DNA of 62,211 nt from Stramenopiles sp. TOSAG23-3 (lineage: Eukaryota): NCBI GenBank assembly GCA_900128585.1, contig LT642154.1, forward strand, positions 1 through 62,211. The letters run 5' to 3'. A program made the translations under genes and the position numbers. Every line of letters begins with the position of its first letter. The first letter of the stretch is position 1. The notes under the pieces are model-generated. The model was not told the origin of the DNA. It saw nothing but the letters and a program-made list of their open reading frames with translations, and made no database searches. This document shows, piece by piece, positions 6,749-15,691 of the stretch.

Positions 6749-8121
6749 CGCGTGGCAGTAGCCGGGCCACGATAAAATGAATTATGAATATTTCGAGTAT
6801 GATCCCAGGTTTCAATTGATCAATACGGGGAAGCTAGCGTTCACAGCGCGGGCACCAGTATTTCCAGTGTTTCCCTTCGCGCTAATACGAGGCCTCCGGG
6901 CGGCAAGACATTCCAACCTTTTTAATAAAAAAAAAGTTTAATATAAAAAATACCAAAAAAAAGGAGGAGGTATAGTATTACACTTCTTCAACCAACCACG
7001 ACGTTAATAAATATAATAAGCAATAAAAATAAAATAGGAAGAAAAAATAATAATGTTGAACCAACTACGAGGACGGTAGACACTATTATTATATTAGATT
7101 ATTAGTCTAGATAATACGGCGGTGCATAGTATAATAAAATATCAAAAATAATACACACTTCTTGTGCTGTGTTAATGTATTATGTATAATAATTTACTTA
7201 AAATATTATCGTTTTTAAATCTTTTTTTTTGCTTTTTTTTTTGTTGCTTTTATAGCCTCTATGTAATAATAAATATTATAAACAACTCGACGGACTACGA
7301 GGAGTCTACAAAAATCATTAGTTCAATTTGAGTTCTCTGTTATTATTACATTATAATACTTGTTATTTCTTGGTAAATAGATTAATTTTAATTTAATTGT
7401 CACATTATTGTTTAGGGTTAGCTTATTACTTCCTCTCCTAGAGTAAAAAGAAAAGAAAAGAATCTTTCTATTCTTCTTTCTTCTCTGGAGGACTGGAGGA
7501 GTGCATTGAGCTGTTTGTTTGTTGTCAATCAATATTGACCACCAACTTGATCAATTGTTTATTTGACTTGTAATTTAGTTTTATTAAGTATTAAGGTATA
7601 CAAATTAATATACATACTATAGGGACATCATCCTGGAAGTTTCACTATTATTATACTAAATATATATATTATAATTATATTTTGTGTGAACATAATAATA
7701 TATTTGTTTTATTATAAAAATCCTTAATTAGTAGACGGACGGACTGACAGATGAGATTTCAGATTTTTTTATTTTATTATTTTTATTTATTAACCAATCG
7801 TCTTCTTCTCTATCTCTCTACCACAAGGACTCTTCTTCTCTCTTCTCTCTTTCCTCATCGTTGACAAAAAAAAAAGAAAGCAAAAACAAAAACAAAAAAA
7901 TGGTGGAAAGCTATGTGAATAAAGTGACTGCGTTTGTTCCATCCGTGCAACAAATTACATATTGAAGCGTTCTCGAGGACAGTCGTTTAAGGAAGAGTCT
8001 GACGAGTTGTACTTTTGCCACGGACGGTTTTTGTGAATTTTATCGTTCTATATATACATTATATAGTGAGTGCAAAAAGTAGGCGTCTCTTTCGGCGTGC
8101 ACAACACAGAAACAGCGAGGT

Positions 8122-11100
8122 ATGGTATTGTTTCCTCGCAGTTTTACAAAGTTGGCAATGGGCGGTTTCCGCCCTTCTACCGGTTTTGTCTTGGTGTTCA
8201 CTGCGCTCTTTGGCTGGTTTGCGCGCGTCGGGGCAGCAGTGGAAATATACGCAACGCCGCACAACGCCGCCGTAAGCTCGTACGAGGAGTACACCGCAGG
8301 GGTCACCCTGTTCAACCAGGGGAACGAGTTCCACAAGAATAACCAGCTAGACCAGGCAATGGTGTACTACAGGAAGTCGGTACTGCATTACCCGCTCCTT
8401 GGGGAAGCATACCTGAACATGGGAAATATTCTGAAAGGGGTAGAGGCTTACAGGATCTACGAAAAAGCGGTGGAAGTCAGCGGTCCCAACAGCCTGGCGC
8501 CCAACAAGCCGCTCTACGCAAACGCGTTGGCCAACATGGGGCACTACCTAGTGGAGCTGCAGTCGAAAGGGGCAGAGGCAGAGTTTAAAACTATTGAGAA
8601 AGCGATAGAAATGTACATCGAGGCTCTGCGGTGGCAGCCCGAGAATGACAACGTTTGGTACAATCTAGGGATTGCATACGAAAAGCAGGGGTTTCGCCAA
8701 GACGCGTTCGAAGCGTACAGAAAGACCTTGGCTTTAGAGCCCTTGCACGTTGGTGCCAATTTGAATATAGGCAACTTGATGATGTATGGCGGCTACCACA
8801 ACCTATCGTTGTTCTACCACGAAAGGGCGCTATCAAGCCCGGGGCTTACCGAATGGTACAAGATTGGGACAATGAACAACATGGGCGAAACTTACCGATT
8901 TTTGAACGACGTTAAGAGCTCGTTGGCAATGAACCGGAGGGCATTGGCCGTCTCTCCGAATGACGAGATGACGCTGTTCAATATTTACAAGGCCAAGAGA
9001 ACACTGTGCGACTGGGAAAACATACGGGAGGAGATAGATTTCTTAATCAAATTAACCAACGATCAGCTGAGTACCGGTCCAAACTGCACCATGCTTCCTT
9101 ACGACGCATCGCTACTCCCAATTTCGAAAAAATTTCTGTTGAAAGTTGCCACGGCGAATACCCATAGGTACAGAAAGCTTCAGTTTGTGCCGCGAGACAG
9201 CACTAACGACCATTTCGTCGGCAAAATTGTTCAATATCCGAACGGTGAAGAAGGCCGTTTCCGGCTGGTCGTTGGGTACACGGGTTACGATTTTAACAAT
9301 CATCCGATGGGTCACTTGACATGCGGGGTGTTAGAGTTGCACGACCGCAACCACATTGGCGTGAATTGTTACCCTTACGGCAACGACGACAAGACTCTCC
9401 AACGACTACGGATAATTAAGGCGTGCGATGTTTTCAAGAACACCACGATGCTTGCAGACTACAAAATTGCACATACGATGTCAGACGATGGGGTCCACAT
9501 TTCTGTTGACTTAATGGCGCACACTCGGGGGACCCGTTTAGGAGTAGCAGCGTATCACCCTGGTGCAATTTTGGTGAACTACTTGGGGTATCCTGGGACC
9601 ATTGGGACATACCGGTATGCCGATTACATCATCGTCGACCGCAACATCGTTGTGCCCGAAACGGCAAAAAACGAAGTCAGCGAAAAAGTTGTTTATTTAC
9701 CACATCACTACCAGGCGAATGATTTTCTTTTGCACGTAGATTTTTGCGGCGGCCCGTCAACGAAATTGCTTAACAGCGCCACCAACCAAAGGTTGCTAGA
9801 TCCTGCAGTGGAGAAAGATTGCGCAAAAGAAAACGTTGCTGCCAAGAGGGAGGAGGAAGGGATCCCTGGCGATGCCAGCGTGGTCATGTGCAACTTCAAT
9901 ACGATAGACAAGATGGAGCAGGACGTATTTGCCATATGGATGTCCATCTTGAGACGTGTACCGGGTGGCGTGCTCTGGCTGTTGGCCCCGAAAGGGAAAA
10001 CAGGGGACGAAGTAAGGCTTAACTTTTTCAAAGAAGCCACGCACTTTGGAGTGGATCCTAGGAGGTTGATCATTGCGCGAAGAGTTTCAAAGTTTGACCA
10101 CCTGGACCGATTCAGATATTGCGACTTATTTCTAGACACTTTTATTTATGGCGCTCATTCCACAGCGTCTGACGCGCTGTGGACATTCACCCCAATCGTT
10201 ACCTTCGAGGGTGAACTTTTTCAGAGTCGCGTGGCCGCAGATCTTATTTTTGCTATTGGATTGGACGAGCTGGTGACCCATTCGCGCCGGGACTTCGAAG
10301 ATGTATCCGTTGCACTTGCCAATAACCCGGCCAAACTGACAGCTTTACGGGACAAACTTATTGCAAATGCTTTGCCGTGGCCCCTGTTTGATACGTTTCG
10401 AATGACCGACAATTTGGAACGTTCTTACAAGGCAATGTGGGAAGTAAGGGAAACGTTCAAGATGGATCCAACCAATCTCGTAATAGCCCCTGCAAGCCCT
10501 TATAAAATGTCTCCTCTCCACGTCCTGGAGCAGCGCGACGCAGTTCAGGTAAAGGCAGCGATTAATTTGCAATCTTCAGGCAATCTCACCCAGGCGGGGA
10601 ATATCTACCGGAGACTACTCGCAGTAGACCCTGGCAGCTCGAATTACTGGCATTTGTTTGGCCTTACTCGTCATGCACAAGGATACCACCAGGCGGGGGT
10701 GAATTTTGTCAAGTATGCAGTTGCATTGGAGGGGGACAATTTTATCGCGATGTACCACCAAAATTTAGCGGAGTTGTGCAGAAGCATTGAAGATCTTCAG
10801 TGTGCAGTGAAACATCTGGAGCTGACATGGAAGAATCAAGAAGTGAGCCTCGAGACAACCCAAAATATATTTGATACCCTCATCCGTTTGAGGGAGTCGG
10901 CGACGGTCGTTCAATTTTTCGAAGCGTACGGGACGCCTTTAATGATAAAGGAGAATATTGGAAGAGGGAGCGAGCATATTGTAACTGAAATATTGACTTT
11001 GGTGGCGATAGCGTATGCTGAAAGTGTAAATTTAGAAGCCAACGGGGTGCCAGACATTTGTTTTGAACTCCTAGCCAAAGCTATTGAGATTAGCCCCAAT

Positions 11101-12480
11101 GTACCACGCCCAAGGCAGAAATTGGCAATATTTTTTGATCTCCGCAACCAATTTAACACTGCTTTTCGTATATACACCCACATGATGAAATTGCAAAACA
11201 AAATGGACTTGCTTAGTATGAACGCCGCACAAAGGAATGTGCAAGAACAGGTATACCTTGCTCGTAAAATGTCTCGAATGCAAGGAAAGAAAATTCTTAT
11301 TATCTATTGCAACGAATATGATCAAACGTGGTGGCCAAATTGGGGTCCAACTTCAATGGATACTGGGGGGGCGGGGGGATCGGAGGAGGCAGTAATTTTT
11401 CTCTCTAAAGAGATGCACAAGGTGTATGGATATCACGTTGAGGTATATGGCGATCCATTGCCTGAGTTTTGGGGGCAACGGAAGGATACGGGCGTGTGGT
11501 GGCTTCCTCTCAAAAGTTACGACGCTTATTTGCAAGATTCCTCTTTGGTGCCAGACATTTTCGTTTCTTGGCGGTACCATATCTCTACTGCATACGGCGA
11601 GAACGCAAAACAACAGTACATATGGCTCCAGGATATTTCTAAACGGTACAAAGTAGCGTTCACTGATGAATACATAGATAGCGTTTCTGGCGTATTCACC
11701 CTCAGCCAGTTTCACGGCAGAGAAGCTTTATCGGACTATGCTTTGAAAAAGACATTCGTCACACCCAATGCTCTTGACCCAAAATATTTTTACAATGGCC
11801 CTAATGAGAATAATCGTTTCATATACGCAAGCGCCCCAAACCGTGGACTTAGTATAGTGTTGGTAGGCTGGGCGCAGATAAAGAGAGCAATTCCAAGCGC
11901 TATATTGGAAGTTTATTATGGTTTTTCTGACGCTTTTCTGAAGTTTGGACAAACCAGCATTCCCAACTTCCCATCGTGGTTGCAAAAGATGAAGGAACTC
12001 TTGAAGCAAGATGGCATCATCTATCATGGAATGGCTGACCATCACACCCTTGGAAAAGGTTATGCCCGCTCCGGCTTTTATCTCTACCCTACGTCGTACC
12101 CCGAGACTGGATGCGTAGCGTTAATGAAAGCGCAGGCATTGGGCGCTATTCCAATAACAAGCCAACATGACGATTCCACCCTTCCGGAATTGACAAGCGA
12201 GTTTGATCTTGGCCCCCCGATGACCGAGGCACGAAAAGCACGGAGGATAGATGAAGTCGTCGAATGGCAGCAAGAATGGGTCGATTCGGTTGTTAAGGCT
12301 GCGACTATGGACGAAAGGAAAATTGCTGAACACCGTGCCCGAATGATCACCAAGTCCAGAAAACGGTTTCTTTGGTCAACAGTGGCAGGCCTATGGGACG
12401 ATGCGTTTTCCCGGGACGTAGACTACAAGAGTAAGAATTGGGAAGATGTTTTTCCAGCCGCAGTGAGTTTCACTCCATGA
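8122..12480 (+). CDS. Signal peptide + TPR + O-GlcNAc-transferase-like GT41 + TPR + GT4-like glycosyltransferase
   Basis: 'DFNNHPMGHL', 'YLGYPGT', 'NFNTIDK', 'DTFIYGAHSTASDALW' match the OGT catalytic lobes; C-terminal 'GGSEEAVIFLS', 'YASAPNRGL', 'YPTSYPETGCVALMKAQALG' indicate a second GT-B enzyme. Confidence 0.85.
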   Translation: MVLFPRSFTKLAMGGFRPSTGFVLVFTALFGWFARVGAAVEIYATPHNAAVSSYEEYTAGVTLFNQGNEFHKNNQLDQAMVYYRKSVLHYPLLGEAYLNMGNILKGVEAYRIYEKAVEVSGPNSLAPNKPLYANALANMGHYLVELQSKGAEAEFKTIEKAIEMYIEALRWQPENDNVWYNLGIAYEKQGFRQDAFEAYRKTLALEPLHVGANLNIGNLMMYGGYHNLSLFYHERALSSPGLTEWYKIGTMNNMGETYRFLNDVKSSLAMNRRALAVSPNDEMTLFNIYKAKRTLCDWENIREEIDFLIKLTNDQLSTGPNCTMLPYDASLLPISKKFLLKVATANTHRYRKLQFVPRDSTNDHFVGKIVQYPNGEEGRFRLVVGYTGYDFNNHPMGHLTCGVLELHDRNHIGVNCYPYGNDDKTLQRLRIIKACDVFKNTTMLADYKIAHTMSDDGVHISVDLMAHTRGTRLGVAAYHPGAILVNYLGYPGTIGTYRYADYIIVDRNIVVPETAKNEVSEKVVYLPHHYQANDFLLHVDFCGGPSTKLLNSATNQRLLDPAVEKDCAKENVAAKREEEGIPGDASVVMCNFNTIDKMEQDVFAIWMSILRRVPGGVLWLLAPKGKTGDEVRLNFFKEATHFGVDPRRLIIARRVSKFDHLDRFRYCDLFLDTFIYGAHSTASDALWTFTPIVTFEGELFQSRVAADLIFAIGLDELVTHSRRDFEDVSVALANNPAKLTALRDKLIANALPWPLFDTFRMTDNLERSYKAMWEVRETFKMDPTNLVIAPASPYKMSPLHVLEQRDAVQVKAAINLQSSGNLTQAGNIYRRLLAVDPGSSNYWHLFGLTRHAQGYHQAGVNFVKYAVALEGDNFIAMYHQNLAELCRSIEDLQCAVKHLELTWKNQEVSLETTQNIFDTLIRLRESATVVQFFEAYGTPLMIKENIGRGSEHIVTEILTLVAIAYAESVNLEANGVPDICFELLAKAIEISPNVPRPRQKLAIFFDLRNQFNTAFRIYTHMMKLQNKMDLLSMNAAQRNVQEQVYLARKMSRMQGKKILIIYCNEYDQTWWPNWGPTSMDTGGAGGSEEAVIFLSKEMHKVYGYHVEVYGDPLPEFWGQRKDTGVWWLPLKSYDAYLQDSSLVPDIFVSWRYHISTAYGENAKQQYIWLQDISKRYKVAFTDEYIDSVSGVFTLSQFHGREALSDYALKKTFVTPNALDPKYFYNGPNENNRFIYASAPNRGLSIVLVGWAQIKRAIPSAILEVYYGFSDAFLKFGQTSIPNFPSWLQKMKELLKQDGIIYHGMADHHTLGKGYARSGFYLYPTSYPETGCVALMKAQALGAIPITSQHDDSTLPELTSEFDLGPPMTEARKARRIDEVVEWQQEWVDSVVKAATMDERKIAEHRARMITKSRKRFLWSTVAGLWDDAFSRDVDYKSKNWEDVFPAAVSFTP

Positions 12481-12652
12481 ACAACTTTTTGAGAGAGATA
12501 AATTACTTCACAAAGTTTTTGTTTTTAAATTACTTACAAAGTAAATAACAAGTGCCATTATTTTTTTATTTTTAAAAAAACAAATTGTATATAATACGAA
12601 GTATACTCGTATCATAAGCTTATTCTCAGAATTAAAATGTAGTGCGCAAAAT

Positions 12653-15600
12653 TTAAAATTCGCCAAAAGCTGCGAACGGGTCCTCATCCCCACTGTTTTT
12701 ATCATCATCACCTGGGGCTGCGTTCGCTTCGAAAGCATCTACAGAGCCGAACCCTGCGTTAGCCGCGGCAAACGGATCTTCTCCCCCAGCACTGGCATCA
12801 CCTGCATCAAATTCATCATTGAAGCCACCACCCACCGTTGCAAATGGATCTACATCTTTGGGGGCATTGTCCGCCCCTCCTTTGGATTCTTCGGCTCCAA
12901 AAGCAGCAAACGCATCCCCCCCACCCATAGTGCCCCAGCCGCCCTCGTCACCAGCCCCAGTTTCTGCATTCACATTTGCACTGCTGTCTTTCTCTGGAAA
13001 CGCAGTGTCTCCAGTTGGAAAATTGGCATCTTCACTTCGAAAAGCAGCGTTGCCAGTTGGAAACGCAGCATCACCAGTTGGAAACGCAGGATCACCAGTT
13101 GGAAAAGCAGCGTCGCCGGTTGGAAAAGCGGCATCTTCACTTGGAAAAGCAGCATCCTCACTTGGAAAGGCAGCATCGCCACTTGGAAAAGCGGTATCTT
13201 CACTGGGGAAAGCGGTATCTTCACTGGGGAAAGCGGTATCTTCACTGGGGAAAGCTTCAGCATCCCCAGTTGGAAACGCGGTGTCTTCACTGGGAAACGC
13301 CATAGTAGACCCAAACGGATCAACAGTAGCAGCAGGCGCCTCCTCAACAGATGCTGGTCCGGAATCCGCCCCACTTCTAGGACTATCCGCGTCTTCAAAC
13401 GCTGAAAATGCGGGCTGAGGCTCGCTGGCTACTTCGGCAAACGGGTCACCCGCGGTCGTGTCGACCTCACTGTTCGTTTCTTCAGCTATGGAAACGCCTT
13501 CTGTCGGAGCGCCTCCTTTGAAAACCCTTCCCATTGTCATATTCATCAGATTTGTCCTACTATTGTCATACATCGTATCCTCCTCGTCCGAACTATTTGC
13601 AGAATTAACTGAAGATGGTGATACATTGCCAAATGGTATGCTCTCCTCTTCGTTTGACGAGTTGCTGTTGGGTCGCGGTGGACTATCGCTGCCGAAATTT
13701 GCCCCGAACGCGTCGGACGTGTCTCCAAATGCATTTGCCTGAAACAGCGGTGTCGCCTCAGAGCCACTGGATTCTGCAATGCGCTTCTTAAGGGCATGTT
13801 TCTCATCCAATTTGCTCTCGTGAATTGCTGCTGCAGCTTGAAGGTCGGTCTTGCTCTGGTGGTACTTTGCTTTGGCATCGCTGCGTTTGATCTCCGCTGC
13901 ACGCAGTGTCTCTTTTAAGGCCGCAATCTCTTTTTCGGCTGCTTGAATATTTTCGTTGTGTTTCCCTTGCAGTTGCATAAGAGTGTTTGAGCTGTCATCA
14001 AAGTCTTGTATTTCGCCAGTCACTTGGCGTATTTGATTCGCCAGCCTTGCCTTTGCTTGATCCAGCTCTTGGGTTTTTCCCTTTATAAGTAGGGCTTCCT
14101 CCTTTTTCCCCCAAAGTTCTTCCCGTCTTTGCTCCAAGGATTCCCTTAAAGAAAGAATTTCTTTTCTGAGCAAGTCTTCTCTAGAAGCGCTTTCTTTAAC
14201 CGTTTCTTCTGCTTTTACGAGATCATCAGTCATGTTATCCAGCGTTAAACTTAAAGAGTTCCTCTCAGTCTCCAATTGCTCTACCTGACGCTCCATATTT
14301 CCCACCAAAGCATGGAGATTGCTGGAAACAGCCGATGCAACGCTGCCTGCAGCAGACACGACATTTTTCTGGGCGTTAACTTCGTTGTCGATGCCAGAGG
14401 ACAGCACGTCCAATTTTGGGTGCTGCGGAATAAACGCCATCTGTGGGATCGCTGCAGGTTTTGTTTCTATTTGTGGCTCCTCCATAGAGATGGGGGATAA
14501 AGTGCCCGCCGCGGTTGCTCCATTGTTGGGTTTTGGGACATTGATTTGCATCACCGCAAAGGCGTCGTTGGGAGTGCTCCCAAAGCCGTCGTTGGGAGTG
14601 CTCCCAAAGGCGTCGTTGGTGCTCCCAAAGCCGTCATTGGTGCTCCCAAAGCCATCGTTTGTGCTACCAAATTCCTCGTTGTTCTTCCCGAACCCGTCGC
14701 TGCTGCTGCCAAAACTATCGCTCCTCGGGGCCGGCTCCATTTGTACCGGAGGCTGTAAGATTGTAGCACTTGGCGCTGGCGGCTGCAGCGCTGGCGGCTG
14801 TGGGGCCGCCTTTGTCTTGGGCTCTTCCGTCTTCAGGATAGACATGTCGATTCCCAATGCATTTGAAAGCGTGTTGGCGAGTTTCGTTCCGGGAGACGGC
14901 ATGGGTTCGGGCTGTGGCTCCCCTCCCCACCCGGCTTCTTCCCCCATCACTTCTTCTGGGTTGGCCATGTTTTCGGACTCGGTGCCAGGCTTTAACACCT
15001 CGGGGAGCTCATTTGGCAGCACGCGACCGCGGCGGCTCACTTGAACGATCAGGTGGAACGCTACGCAAAATTCTTCCAAAGTTAGCTTCCCGTCCTGGTC
15101 CATGTCCGACATGATCCATATCTTCCCAAGAATTTGCTGCGGCAAGTTTGATTTCATCATGAACTCCCGGGCCTGTGGCCCCGTAAGGTGCCCCTTTTTC
15201 TCCTTGTCCAGCATGAAGAAATGGTTCGAGTACTTGCCCCTGGTCTCGTCGTCAATCGCCCACGATGAGGACGCCGGCCCCGCCGTTCCCCCTGTGCTTT
15301 GCCCTTGTTGGGCAGGGACTGCGGGAACGGTGGGGTTTGGGATCCCTTCAAAAACTGGGAGCGATAGGTGCGTTGCAGACGTTTCCATAAGAGAGTTGCT
15401 GCTGAGTGAGATCCCGTTTTGGGCCATAGATATCAGGCGCATCGCAGCGTGGAAGTCCCCCCTTGTTAGAAACCCTTTCTGGTCGCTGTCAGCGATGTTC
15501 CAAAGCTCCTTTAATATAGCTGGGGCCACCTTGGACTTTAGAAAAAACGGAACGGCCAGCTGGCCAGTGATCTGATTCCCTTTTCCTGCCGTGACAAAGT

Positions 15601-15691
15601 GAAACAGTTGCTCAAAGTAAGGGAGCTCGATCTGTGTTGGGACGTACCGTGCAGTGTTGGGGGTTGCCCCGTTCCCGAAGTTGCCGTCCAT
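12653..15691 (-). CDS. Eps15/Ede1-like endocytic scaffold (2 EH domains, coiled coil, DPF/acidic tail)
   Basis: EH motifs 'LKELWNIADSDQKGFL' and 'LGKIWIMSDMDQDGKLTLEEFCVAFHLI', heptad region, several DPF motifs. Confidence 0.85.
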   Translation of the reverse strand: MDGNFGNGATPNTARYVPTQIELPYFEQLFHFVTAGKGNQITGQLAVPFFLKSKVAPAILKELWNIADSDQKGFLTRGDFHAAMRLISMAQNGISLSSNSLMETSATHLSLPVFEGIPNPTVPAVPAQQGQSTGGTAGPASSSWAIDDETRGKYSNHFFMLDKEKKGHLTGPQAREFMMKSNLPQQILGKIWIMSDMDQDGKLTLEEFCVAFHLIVQVSRRGRVLPNELPEVLKPGTESENMANPEEVMGEEAGWGGEPQPEPMPSPGTKLANTLSNALGIDMSILKTEEPKTKAAPQPPALQPPAPSATILQPPVQMEPAPRSDSFGSSSDGFGKNNEEFGSTNDGFGSTNDGFGSTNDAFGSTPNDGFGSTPNDAFAVMQINVPKPNNGATAAGTLSPISMEEPQIETKPAAIPQMAFIPQHPKLDVLSSGIDNEVNAQKNVVSAAGSVASAVSSNLHALVGNMERQVEQLETERNSLSLTLDNMTDDLVKAEETVKESASREDLLRKEILSLRESLEQRREELWGKKEEALLIKGKTQELDQAKARLANQIRQVTGEIQDFDDSSNTLMQLQGKHNENIQAAEKEIAALKETLRAAEIKRSDAKAKYHQSKTDLQAAAAIHESKLDEKHALKKRIAESSGSEATPLFQANAFGDTSDAFGANFGSDSPPRPNSNSSNEEESIPFGNVSPSSVNSANSSDEEDTMYDNSRTNLMNMTMGRVFKGGAPTEGVSIAEETNSEVDTTAGDPFAEVASEPQPAFSAFEDADSPRSGADSGPASVEEAPAATVDPFGSTMAFPSEDTAFPTGDAEAFPSEDTAFPSEDTAFPSEDTAFPSGDAAFPSEDAAFPSEDAAFPTGDAAFPTGDPAFPTGDAAFPTGNAAFRSEDANFPTGDTAFPEKDSSANVNAETGAGDEGGWGTMGGGDAFAAFGAEESKGGADNAPKDVDPFATVGGGFNDEFDAGDASAGGEDPFAAANAGFGSVDAFEANAAPGDDDKNSGDEDPFAAFGEF
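12993..13300 (-). repeat. Coding 21-nt tandem repeat (AFPSEDT/AFPTGDA), ~14 units
   Basis: Directly visible units such as gcggtatcttcactggggaaa. Confidence 0.9.
14560..14680 (-). repeat. Coding 21-24-nt tandem repeat (FGSTNDG/FGSTPND)
   Basis: Repeated gtgctcccaaagccgtcgttg units. Confidence 0.85.

What the first reader, a model, noticed from the sequence alone, without database searches (positions are those of the whole stretch)
8122..12480. Signal-peptide-bearing OGT fused to a second glycosyltransferase: possible one-protein, two-step glycosylation system
Seen: a hydrophobic N-terminus ending in a cleavage-like 'VGA-A', then TPRs and a full GT41 domain with OGT-type 'NHPMGHL' (not SPY-type HSV) and the catalytic Lys (NFNTIDK). 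A second TPR block follows, then a complete GT4-like domain from ~11287 with E-x7-K in place of E-x7-E. All are in one uninterrupted frame. Known: characterised GT41 enzymes (OGT/SEC/SPY) are nucleocytoplasmic and add a single sugar; luminal EOGT is GT61. Inference: a secretory-pathway enzyme that primes proteins with a sugar and extends it with its own second domain, each with its own TPR recogniser.
Basis: partly seen in the sequence, partly recalled or inferred. Interest (0 to 1): 0.8.

Follow-up and report, generated by a model that had tools for sequence, protein, structure and literature searches.

The report
Secretory OGT fused to second glycosyltransferase
A marine protist gene encodes one long protein with an export signal, an O-GlcNAc-transferase-type enzyme and a second, unusual sugar-adding enzyme; the same design is conserved in water moulds and other stramenopiles but has never been studied, and it hints at an unknown way of decorating secreted proteins with sugars.

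Summary
Window 8122..12480 (+) is one uninterrupted 1452-aa ORF. RNA contigs from four marine metatranscriptomes cover it collinearly, with no splice joints.

Anatomy:
- N-terminal hydrophobic signal ending in VGA|A.
- A TPR array.
- A GT41 catalytic domain of OGT/SEC type, with all tested catalytic and UDP-binding residues kept and no metazoan Int-D.
- A second helical-repeat block of 14 helices.
- A confidently modelled GT-B domain nearest to retaining GT4/GT5 enzymes. It falls below Pfam's GT4 cut-off and has E-x7-K instead of E-x7-E.

The design is not a one-off. Full-length relatives occur in oomycetes, a labyrinthulomycete, bolidophytes and many unnamed marine sequences. The N-terminal hydrophobic segment is present in 29 of 43 fused relatives, against 1 of 64 GT41 proteins without the second domain. 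E-x7-K/R holds in 197 of 206 family domains.

No paper describing the fusion turned up in six searches of the held library.

The secretory (luminal) location is well supported by sequence but unproven. "Prime, then extend" is a reasonable inference, not shown.

Verdict: a real, conserved, uncharacterised variant of GT41 enzymes, of moderate to high interest.

The parts
8005..8121 (+). 5' untranslated leader
   Evidence: An RNA contig of run X2 starts at 8005 and one of X8 at 8078. There is no ATG in 8005-8121. An in-frame stop lies at 8080-8082.
8122..8235 (+). Predicted signal peptide, or a short type-II signal anchor (aa 1-38). The n-region carries R6, K10 and R17, the h-region is aa 21-34, and the c-region is V36-G37-A38|A39. 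A second possible start, M13 at 8158, keeps the signal.
   Evidence: Read directly from the sequence. A Kyte-Doolittle 11-residue window peaks at 2.25 at aa 21-31. The feature is conserved in relatives. SignalP was not run.
8284..8991 (+). First TPR array (about aa 55-290), with OGT-like Asn-x-Gly signatures at aa 97-101, 136-140, 179-183 and 251-255
   Evidence: Pfam TPR families match at E 1e-14 to 1e-10. The region aligns to the human OGT TPRs.
9019..10446 (+). GT41 catalytic domain (about aa 300-775). Key residues are H394 (NHPMGHL, nt 9298-9318), K597 (NFNTIDK, nt 9892-9912), H660, R663 and H679-S-T681-A-S-D684 (nt 10153-10173). It has no Int-D.
   Evidence: PF13844 at E 5.1e-74. Human OGT aligns over query 153-534 and 561-775; query 534-561 stands opposite human 707-817. 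The residues are invariant in 27-28 of 28 family members.
10513..11280 (+). Second helical-repeat (TPR-like) block, aa 798-1053, 14 helices
   Evidence: Consensus-TPR chains match at E 1.1e-12 and Pfam TPR_17/TPR_14 at E about 1e-4. NCBIfam MamA and LcrH TPR models match. AlphaFold model of aa 790-1452: pLDDT 92.4, pTM 0.87.
11284..12441 (+). Divergent GT4-like GT-B glycosyltransferase domain (about aa 1055-1440). Motifs: GGSEEAV (nt 11374-11394), YASAPNRGL (nt 11824-11850) and PETGCVALMKA with E1328-x7-K1336 (nt 12100-12132).
   Evidence: AlphaFold pLDDT 90.5, pTM 0.89. Foldseek hits to GT4/GT5 enzymes at E 4e-13 to 1e-10 with 11-18% identity. The family profile matches Pyrococcus glycogen synthase at E 3.1e-6. 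Pfam PF00534 gives only 15.8 bits against a cut-off of 26.4.
12481..12556 (+). 3' untranslated region
   Evidence: RNA contigs of X2 and X4, from two studies, end at 12555 and 12556. This is only a weak hint of the transcript end.

Best explanation
This is a single, intronless, expressed nuclear gene of a marine stramenopile-like protist. It encodes a two-module glycosyltransferase that enters the secretory pathway.

An N-terminal signal peptide, or a short type-II anchor, would place the whole catalytic part in the ER/Golgi lumen. Module 1 is a TPR array joined to an OGT/SEC-type GT41 domain that keeps the UDP-sugar binding and catalytic residues. By analogy with every characterised GT41 enzyme, it would transfer a single sugar from a UDP-sugar onto Ser/Thr of polypeptides held by the TPR array. 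Module 2 is a second TPR-like array joined to a divergent GT-B domain related to retaining GT4/GT5 enzymes. Its signature is GGSEE ... S-x-P-x-R-G ... E-x7-K/R.

The most likely working model is that the two modules act in succession on the same secretory or cell-surface proteins: GT41 primes and the GT4-like domain adds a further sugar.

Shown here: the gene structure, the domain identities, residue conservation, conservation of the fusion and of the N-terminal signal, and the presence of RNA.

Inferred: cleavage and luminal topology, the donor sugars, the acceptors and the order of action.
For: - ORF and start.
- RNA: contigs from 4 runs of 4 studies cover 8005-12556 collinearly with no joints. 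Contigs bridge the end of GT41 (X4, 9684-10551) and the start of the GT4-like domain (X4, 10848-11385; X2, 10713-11315). The flanks are uncovered in 3 of 4 runs.
- GT41 identity.
- GT41 catalytic residues: H394, K597, H660, R663, H679 and T681 are invariant in 28 of 28 sequences, and D684 in 27 of 28.
- GT-B fold of the C-terminal domain, with GT4/GT5 as nearest folds.
- Family-wide motifs: E in 206 of 206 domains; at +8, K in 178 and R in 19 of 206; GGSEE and S-x-P-x-R-G are nearly invariant.
- Conservation of the fusion: 28 of the 120 listed hits cover at least 92% of the query. They include Pythium, Phytophthora, Lagenidium, Saprolegnia, Aphanomyces, Hondaea and Triparma. Of 150 C-domain representatives, 42 carry GT41 upstream. 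One, from Rhodelphis, has the reverse order and also a hydrophobic N-terminus.
- Signal: a hydrophobic N-terminal segment occurs in 29 of 43 fused relatives that start with M, against 1 of 64 GT41 proteins without the C-domain. The h-regions are mostly 13-17 residues, and only about 15 residues separate the predicted cleavage site from the conserved YATPHN/TPR start.
- Module 2 as a whole: it models confidently as a helical array plus GT-B. Its best whole-chain Foldseek matches are SPY and OGT, at E 4e-15.
- General knowledge (recalled): fused glycosyltransferases such as LARGE1, PgtA and dGT1 usually catalyse successive steps on one glycan.
Against: - No signal-peptide predictor could be run. 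The call rests on hydrophobicity, the -3/-1 rule and conservation.
- 14 of the 43 fused relatives lack the segment within the first 60 residues. Several of these are fragments or have doubtful starts, and three look like bacterial-type fusions.
- There is no C-terminal KDEL/HDEL, and a soluble luminal glycosyltransferase without a retention signal is unusual.
- Only 4 N-x-S/T sequons occur in 1452 aa, so there is no enrichment.
- No single RNA contig spans both catalytic domains, and RNA libraries can contain DNA.
- The second Glu of E-x7-E is replaced. The domain falls below Pfam's GT4 cut-off, so its activity is not assured.
- The whole-module match to SPY/OGT has TM of only 0.35-0.38. It reflects like parts in like order, not the same rigid arrangement.
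- Nothing here shows that module 2 acts on the product of module 1.
Confidence: 0.45

Rival explanations
1. Two independent protein glycosyltransferases sit on one chain. Each TPR-plus-GT-B module recognises polypeptides on its own and adds its own first sugar to different sites or different proteins. There is no priming and extension.
For: Module 2 has its own 14-helix array directly before the GT-B domain. As a whole it is most like SPY and OGT, which are TPR-guided protein glycosyltransferases. The TPR-plus-C-domain unit also occurs without GT41: after a GT2 domain in proteins of about 800 aa, and in an 805-aa Phytophthora model.
Against: GT41 and GT4-like domains are fused repeatedly: 42 of 150 representatives, one in reversed order, plus bacterial-type fusions. 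By general experience (recalled), that pattern points to one pathway. The second array largely lacks the Asn-x-Gly ladder seen in the first.
Confidence: 0.2
2. The C-terminal GT-B domain is not an enzyme. It would be a nucleotide-sugar or acceptor-binding regulatory or chaperone module for the GT41 domain, in the manner of GtfB in the streptococcal GtfA/GtfB pair.
For: The second Glu of E-x7-E is replaced by Lys or Arg in 197 of 206 family domains. Pfam GT4 models fall below their cut-offs. GtfA/B chains are among the Foldseek hits (rank 22).
Against: Residues that line the nucleotide-sugar site in GT4/GT5 enzymes are conserved very strongly: GGSEE, S-x-P-x-R-G and the first Glu in 206 of 206. 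The same domain occurs alone and in up to three copies per protein. Both facts fit an enzyme better than an accessory domain.
Confidence: 0.12
3. The protein is not luminal. The N-terminal hydrophobic stretch would be a membrane tether that leaves both modules in the cytosol, or a targeting signal for another organelle. The enzyme would then modify cytosolic proteins or the cytosolic face of membranes, as canonical OGT does.
For: All characterised GT41 enzymes work in the cytosol, the nucleus or the bacterial cytoplasm (recalled, and the introduction of PMC11507795 seen). No predictor was run. There is no retention signal, and sequons are few.
Against: The h-regions are mostly 13-17 residues with small residues at -3/-1, and in the query the positive charges lie on the N-terminal side. 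Both point to N-in/C-out insertion or cleavage. The segment is hydrophobic rather than amphipathic. Relatives in plastid-less oomycetes and labyrinthulomycetes have it too, and there is no room for a transit peptide. An oomycete secretome study counted GT41 proteins among predicted secreted proteins (PMC4316629).
Confidence: 0.18
4. It is an artefact: two neighbouring genes or a mis-assembly read as one frame.
For: One public gene model (P0002, 1312 aa) differs from the plain ORF.
Against: There is no stop in 4356 nt. The RNA contigs are collinear, including across both domain borders. The same full-length architecture is found in many taxa. The stretch removed in P0002 (nt 11101-11484) holds the conserved GGSEE motif and is covered by unspliced RNA contigs.
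Confidence: 0.02

Closest known systems
Metazoan OGT / plant SEC (CAZy GT41, O-GlcNAc transferase)
   Same: A TPR array comes before a GT41 GT-B catalytic domain. The His of the NHP motif, the catalytic Lys, and the His/Arg and His-Thr-Thr-x-x-Asp type UDP-binding residues all align. Human OGT matches at E 4.4e-86.
   Different: The query has an N-terminal signal-like segment and fewer TPRs. It has no intervening domain: query 534-561 stands opposite human 707-817. Human HPHH is LPYD here. It carries about 650 extra C-terminal residues with a second glycosyltransferase module.
Bacterial TPR-GT41 proteins (Xanthomonas XcOGT, Thermobaculum terrenum OGT, and many uncharacterised ones)
   Same: They share the Int-D-less GT41 core. 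Bacterial TPR-GT41 proteins score 330-570 bits over about half of the query, more than human OGT at 292.6 bits. Some bacterial-type proteins also carry GT4 Pfam domains (P0083, P0105 and P0118).
   Different: Only 1 of 64 GT41 proteins without the C-domain has a hydrophobic N-terminus. Their function is mostly unknown.
SPINDLY (GT41 protein O-fucosyltransferase of plants, Toxoplasma, Dictyostelium)
   Same: TPR plus GT41. SPY chains are the best whole-chain structural matches to the query's second module.
   Different: The sequence match is weaker than to OGT: E 5.3e-42 against 4.4e-86. SPY is nucleocytoplasmic and uses GDP-fucose (recalled).
Retaining GT-B enzymes of GT4/GT5 (sucrose-phosphate synthase, GlgM, MshA, BshA, PimA, Pyrococcus glycogen synthase)
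   Same: Same fold, with Foldseek E 4e-13 to 1e-10 and TM 0.42-0.64. The Gly-rich loop aligns (GGSEEA with GGLAEA), and so does the first Glu of E-x7-E.
   Different: Identity is only 11-18%. Pfam PF00534 falls below its cut-off. The second Glu is replaced by Lys or Arg throughout the family. The domain is always preceded by helical repeats in the long forms.
EOGT (GT61, ER-luminal O-GlcNAc transferase for EGF repeats)
   Same: If the query is luminal, it would do a similar job in the same compartment.
   Different: It is unrelated in sequence: no GT61 Pfam family appeared in the scan of the whole protein. EOGT has no TPRs and a single catalytic domain (recalled).
Two-domain glycosyltransferases acting in succession (LARGE1, Skp1 PgtA, streptococcal dGT1); TMTC1-4 as luminal TPR-guided glycosyltransferases
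   Same: Two catalytic domains on one chain (recalled). TMTC proteins show that TPR arrays can guide protein O-glycosylation inside the ER (PMC7001481, listing and start of abstract only).
   Different: Different glycosyltransferase families. None of them combines GT41 with a GT4-like domain.

Membership tests
CAZy GT41 (Pfam PF13844) | Match to the family model above the curated cut-off | tested here: met
   249.9 bits against a cut-off of 25, E 5.1e-74.
CAZy GT41 (Pfam PF13844) | Catalytic Lys and UDP-binding His/Arg/His-Thr/Asp residues | tested here: met
   They align to human OGT. K597, H660, R663, H679 and T681 are invariant in 28 of 28 sequences, D684 in 27 of 28 and H394 in 28 of 28. 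Human residue numbers are recalled, not taken from a tool.
CAZy GT41 (Pfam PF13844) | TPR array N-terminal to the catalytic domain | tested here: met
Metazoan-type OGT | Intervening domain (Int-D) between the two catalytic lobes | tested here: not met
   Query 534-561 lies opposite human 707-817.
Canonical OGT/SEC/SPY | Nucleocytoplasmic protein without a signal sequence | tested here: not met
   Hydrophobic N-terminus with VGA|A, conserved in 29 of 43 fused relatives. This is a prediction from sequence, not a localisation.
Canonical OGT/SEC/SPY | Transfer of GlcNAc (or fucose) to Ser/Thr | not testable with these tools
   Needs an enzyme assay.
CAZy GT4 (Pfam Glycos_transf_1, PF00534) | Match above the curated cut-off | tested here: not met
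   15.8 bits against a cut-off of 26.4. Some relatives pass, for example P0160 at 31.9 bits.
CAZy GT4 (Pfam Glycos_transf_1, PF00534) | GT-B fold | tested here: met
   AlphaFold pLDDT 90.5, and Foldseek gives probability 1.00 to GT4/GT5 chains.
CAZy GT4 (Pfam Glycos_transf_1, PF00534) | E-x7-E motif | tested here: not met
   E1328-x7-K1336. Across the family the +8 position is K in 178, R in 19, Q in 6, E in 2 and D in 1 of 206.
CAZy GT4 (Pfam Glycos_transf_1, PF00534) | Gly-rich loop at the start of the N-terminal lobe, and a basic residue followed by Gly after the first strand of the C-terminal lobe | tested here: inconclusive
   GGSEEA aligns with GGLAEA of Pyrococcus glycogen synthase. R1241-G1242 is conserved in 199 and 175 of 206 domains, but its equivalence to the GT4 Lys-Gly is my inference, not an alignment.
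Sec-type signal peptide | n-, h- and c-regions with small residues at -3 and -1 | tested here: inconclusive
   The features are present by inspection and by hydropathy. No trained predictor was available, and a short type-II anchor cannot be excluded.
Bifunctional two-domain glycosyltransferases | Both domains catalytically competent and acting in succession | not testable with these tools
   Residue conservation in both domains is compatible with this. The order of action needs assays.
EOGT (GT61) | GT61 domain | tested here: not met
   No GT61 family appeared among the 18 Pfam families reported for the protein.

The most novel reading that the evidence does not exclude
Stramenopiles, and some other marine protists such as Rhodelphis, have an ancient protein O-glycosylation route inside the secretory pathway built on an OGT-type GT41 enzyme. 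This would be the first GT41 known to work in the ER/Golgi lumen. A TPR-guided GT41 module would prime secreted or cell-surface proteins. A fused, separately TPR-guided GT-B module of a distinct E-x7-K/R subfamily would extend the sugar, so that one polypeptide writes a defined disaccharide. It would be a third, independent solution alongside mucin-type and EOGT-type luminal O-glycosylation.
Probability: 0.3. Interest if true: 0.8.

Novelty: new variant of a known kind. Interest (0 to 1): 0.6.

Why it matters
By all published characterisation I know of, GT41 enzymes define cytosolic and nuclear O-GlcNAc and O-fucose signalling. A conserved GT41 that enters the secretory pathway and is welded to a second glycosyltransferase would extend the family to a new compartment and to building oligosaccharides. 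It would also point to an unknown glycan on secreted or wall proteins of oomycetes, thraustochytrids and marine flagellates, groups whose O-glycosylation is barely charted. Finally, the E-x7-K/R GT-B domain is a large family: 4275 representatives at E of 0.001 or better. Its chemistry is unknown, and this protein offers a tractable entry point.

Tried and rejected
- Whole-genome search for paralogues: no genome is held for this window.
The same scan with the GT2-TPR-C-domain protein P0146 found no relative. The origin of those proteins of about 800 aa therefore stays open.
- NCBIfam: only a far sub-threshold hit to IagA/BgsA, 19.1 bits against a cut-off of 460.
- ESM Atlas: the nearest clusters are generic GT4-type proteins of bacteria and phages. 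These are leads only.
- N-glycosylation sequon count (4 in 1452 aa) and C-terminal retention signal (none): uninformative for topology.
- Plastid targeting: rejected. Relatives occur in plastid-less lineages, and only about 15 residues lie between the predicted cleavage site and the conserved domain start.
- Gene neighbourhood: an EH-domain protein, a CitMHS transporter, an ankyrin protein and others. There is no glycosylation cluster.
- Literature: six full-text searches found no description of a signal-bearing GT41 fused to a GT4-like domain. One of them matched 'GT4' inside 'GT41', so its counts are inflated.
- Supplements are closed. The GT41 tree and models of the brown-alga paper (its Figs S15-S17) could not be seen and may include this clade.
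- Complex prediction was not used. No binding claim is made.

Full report
**The observation.**

Window 8122..12480 (+) is an uninterrupted ORF of 1452 codons. An in-frame stop lies 14 codons upstream, at 8080-8082. The 117 bases between the start of the longest 5' RNA contig (8005) and 8122 hold no ATG. So 8122 is the first possible start. A second Met, M13 at 8158, would keep the same N-terminal features.

- V36-G37-A38|A39 after a hydrophobic stretch at aa 21-34.
- NHPMGHL at aa 393-399.
- NFNTIDK at aa 591-597.
- PETGCVALMKA at aa 1327-1337, which gives E1328-x7-K1336.

**Is it one expressed gene?**

Contigs from four marine metatranscriptome runs of four studies lie on 8005-12556 at 99% or better, collinear with the genome. 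No joints were reported.
- Contigs bridge the end of the GT41 domain (X4, 9684-10551).
- Contigs bridge the start of the C-terminal domain (X4, 10848-11385; X2, 10713-11315).
- The flanks outside about 8005 and about 12556 are uncovered in three of the four runs.

Caveats: the contigs are short and none spans both catalytic domains. An RNA library can also carry DNA. Together with the open frame and the conservation described below, the two-gene or mis-assembly reading is very unlikely.

One public gene model (P0002, 1312 aa) removes nt 11101-11484 as a GT..AG intron. That stretch holds the family's conserved GGSEE motif and is covered by unspliced RNA contigs. I take the intron to be a prediction artefact.

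**Module 1.**

Pfam gives several TPR families between aa about 60 and 280, and PF13844 (GT41) at E 5.1e-74. Against solved structures the best matches are human OGT chains at E 4.4e-86. SPY reaches 5.3e-42 and Xanthomonas XcOGT 1.9e-44.

In the printed alignment:
- The query's NNHPMGHL lies on human GNHPTSHL.
- NFNTIDK lies on NFNQLYK, which holds the catalytic Lys.
- SKFDH..R and AHSTASD lie on PKEEH..R and GHTTGMD.
- Query 534-561 faces human 707-817, so the metazoan intervening domain is absent.
- Human HPHH is LPYD in the query.

In an alignment of the query with 27 full-length relatives, H394, K597, H660, R663, H679 and T681 are invariant and D684 is kept in 27 of 28. The GT41 module therefore looks catalytically competent and UDP-sugar dependent. 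Which sugar it uses cannot be read from sequence.

The bacterial TPR-GT41 proteins score 330-570 bits on about half of the query. That is more than human OGT at 292.6 bits. The GT41 half is thus of the Int-D-less, bacterial-like or SEC-like kind.

**Module 2.**

Residues about 800-1050 give weak Pfam TPR hits and match consensus-TPR chains at E 1.1e-12.

The last 402 residues give only a sub-threshold PF00534 hit: 15.8 bits against a cut-off of 26.4. An exhaustive phmmer search nevertheless found 4275 representatives at E of 0.001 or better, and 287 at 1e-30 or better.

With an alignment of 23 sequences, AlphaFold2 gives a GT-B fold at mean pLDDT 90.5 and pTM 0.89. Foldseek's best solved matches are all retaining GT4/GT5 enzymes at 11-18% identity:
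- sucrose-phosphate synthase
- GlgM
- MshA
- BshA
- PimA
- Pyrococcus glycogen synthase

GT41 chains follow close behind. The family profile finds Pyrococcus glycogen synthase at E 3.1e-6. There GGSEEA aligns with GGLAEA, and the E-x7-K with the enzyme's E-x7-E.

- The first Glu is E in 206 of 206.
- The +8 residue is K in 178, R in 19, Q in 6, E in 2 and D in 1.
- GGSEE and S-x-P-x-R-G are almost invariant.

It is the signature of a distinct, strongly constrained GT-B subfamily. That argues for a working nucleotide-sugar site with an altered contact, although a non-catalytic role cannot be excluded.

A second model, of aa 790-1452 with 30 sequences, reaches pLDDT 92.4 and pTM 0.87. It shows 14 helices (aa 798-1053) running into the GT-B domain. 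As a whole, its best solved matches are SPY and OGT at E 4e-15. The TM-score is only 0.35-0.38, meaning like parts in like order rather than the same rigid geometry.

**Conservation of the fusion.**

Of the 120 best hits listed for the whole protein, 28 cover at least 92% of it; one of these is the window's own protein. The search found 1270 proteins at E of 0.001 or better among 5320 candidates. Named members come from:
- Pythium oligandrum
- Phytophthora fragariae and P. boehmeriae
- Lagenidium giganteum
- Saprolegnia parasitica
- Aphanomyces invadans and A. stellatus
- Hondaea fermentalgiana
- Triparma

Their only names are 'hypothetical protein' or 'protein O-GlcNAc transferase'. The closest relatives (66%, 60%, 44% and 40% identity) are unnamed marine sequences.

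Among the 150 best 50%-identity representatives of the C-domain, 42 have a GT41 domain upstream. One, from Rhodelphis marinus, has it downstream. The other 107 show the C-domain without GT41; many of these are fragments. Other contexts of the C-domain are GT2-TPR-C-domain proteins of about 800 aa and a protein with three copies among many TPRs. The window's neighbours are unrelated eukaryotic genes.

**The signal.**

The query's N-terminus has:
- three basic residues in aa 1-20;
- a 14-residue hydrophobic core;
- small residues at -3 and -1;
- only about 15 residues before the conserved YATPHN and first TPR.

Relatives show the same kind of N-terminus, for example in Phytophthora, Aphanomyces and Hondaea. 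As a crude but controlled test, I asked for an 11-residue Kyte-Doolittle window of 2.0 or more within the first 60 residues of proteins that start with M. It is met by 29 of 43 hits that carry both GT41 and the C-domain. It is met by 1 of 64 hits that carry GT41 without it.

The 14 exceptions include fragments, one protein whose hydrophobic segment lies just beyond residue 60 behind a doubtful start (P0006), and three bacterial-type fusions. The hydrophobic cores are mostly 13-17 residues long. That fits a cleaved signal peptide or a short type-II anchor, and either would put both modules in the lumen. Plastid targeting is excluded by the plastid-less relatives and by the lack of room for a transit peptide.

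No trained predictor was available. No KDEL-type signal is present, and sequons are few. The topology therefore remains a well-founded prediction, at about 0.7.

**What it most likely does.**

Shown: a conserved, expressed, signal-bearing protein with two glycosyltransferase modules whose active-site residues are under constraint.

Inferred: module 1 adds a sugar from a UDP-sugar to Ser/Thr of secretory proteins held by its TPR array, as every characterised GT41 does for its own substrates. Module 2, a probable retaining GT-B enzyme, then adds a second sugar.

The repeated, independent joining of GT41 with GT4-type domains supports a shared pathway: forward order, reverse order, and bacterial-type versions. 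The general behaviour of fused glycosyltransferases (recalled) points the same way.

The rivals, each given with odds in its own section, are:
- two independent protein-directed modules;
- a non-catalytic C-domain;
- a cytosol-facing tethered enzyme.

**Comparison with what is known, and novelty.**

The protein is a member of GT41 by every sequence criterion tested, but not of the metazoan OGT type. Its second domain works like a GT4/GT5 enzyme by fold, but fails two GT4 membership criteria.

I found no paper that describes this architecture. The nearest mentions are two:
- A table of predicted oomycete secretomes lists GT41 counts of 3, 2, 0, 0, 0, 1, 1, 0, 0, 0, 0 across its 11 species columns, beginning with Saprolegnia parasitica (3) and Achlya hypogyna (2). 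The later species names were cut off in the passage (PMC4316629, passage only).
- Brown algae are said to hold about ten GT41 genes, with groups distant from characterised enzymes and donor sites favouring UDP-sugars (PMC11468063, passages only). Its supplementary tree could not be seen.

The introduction of PMC11507795 (one passage) restates that GT41 enzymes are nucleocytoplasmic.

I therefore rate this a new variant of a known kind. It is real, conserved and uncharacterised. Its interest for glycobiology is moderate to high, and it hinges on the luminal location being confirmed.

Noticed in passing
window 11101-11484: A public gene model of this locus (P0002, 1312 aa) splices out 384 nt (GT..AG, in frame). 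The stretch encodes the start of the GT-B domain, including the conserved GGSEE motif. RNA contigs run through it unspliced, so the intron looks like a prediction artefact.
   Followed up: yes
window 12653-15691 (-): The neighbouring gene encodes a 1012-aa protein with EH and EF-hand domains, Eps15-like. It has long low-complexity tails built of short repeats (DGFGSTN-type and FPSEDTA/FPTGDAA-type). Several mechanical ORFs on both strands overlap these repeats.
   Followed up: partly
proteins P0084, P0086, P0091 (N-termini): A second group of unnamed marine proteins of about 1550 aa combines a signal-like N-terminus, a Cys-rich stretch (C-x-C-P-A-D), GT41 and GT4-type Pfam domains. Signal-bearing GT41 fusions therefore seem to have more than one lineage.
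   Followed up: no
protein P0152 (Rhodelphis marinus): The order is reversed, with the E-x7-K-type GT-B domain at 399-770 and GT41 from about 1265. It again has a hydrophobic N-terminus, and it lies outside the stramenopiles.
   Followed up: partly
proteins P0138, P0146, P0163 and about 25 similar representatives: Proteins of about 800 aa with an N-terminal GT2 domain, TPRs and the same C-domain, and without a hydrophobic N-terminus. A scan of prokaryote species genomes with P0146 found no relative, so their source organisms are unknown. The ESM Atlas's nearest clusters for the C-domain are largely phage-labelled.
   Followed up: partly
protein P0124 (Phytophthora cactorum, 805 aa): It has the same signal-like start and first TPRs as the full-length Phytophthora protein, then goes straight to the second TPR block and the C-domain, with no GT41. 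This is either an isoform or paralogue, or a gene model that skips the GT41 exons.
   Followed up: no
window 1-62211: Compact eukaryotic gene layout: 25 ORFs of at least 220 aa, long frames with few or no introns, and AT-rich intergenic spacers. Ten ORFs were scanned against Pfam; they included ankyrin, CitMHS transporter, RRM/zinc-knuckle, PDZ, kinase-ACBP and SPFH proteins. No glycosylation gene turned up among them.
   Followed up: partly
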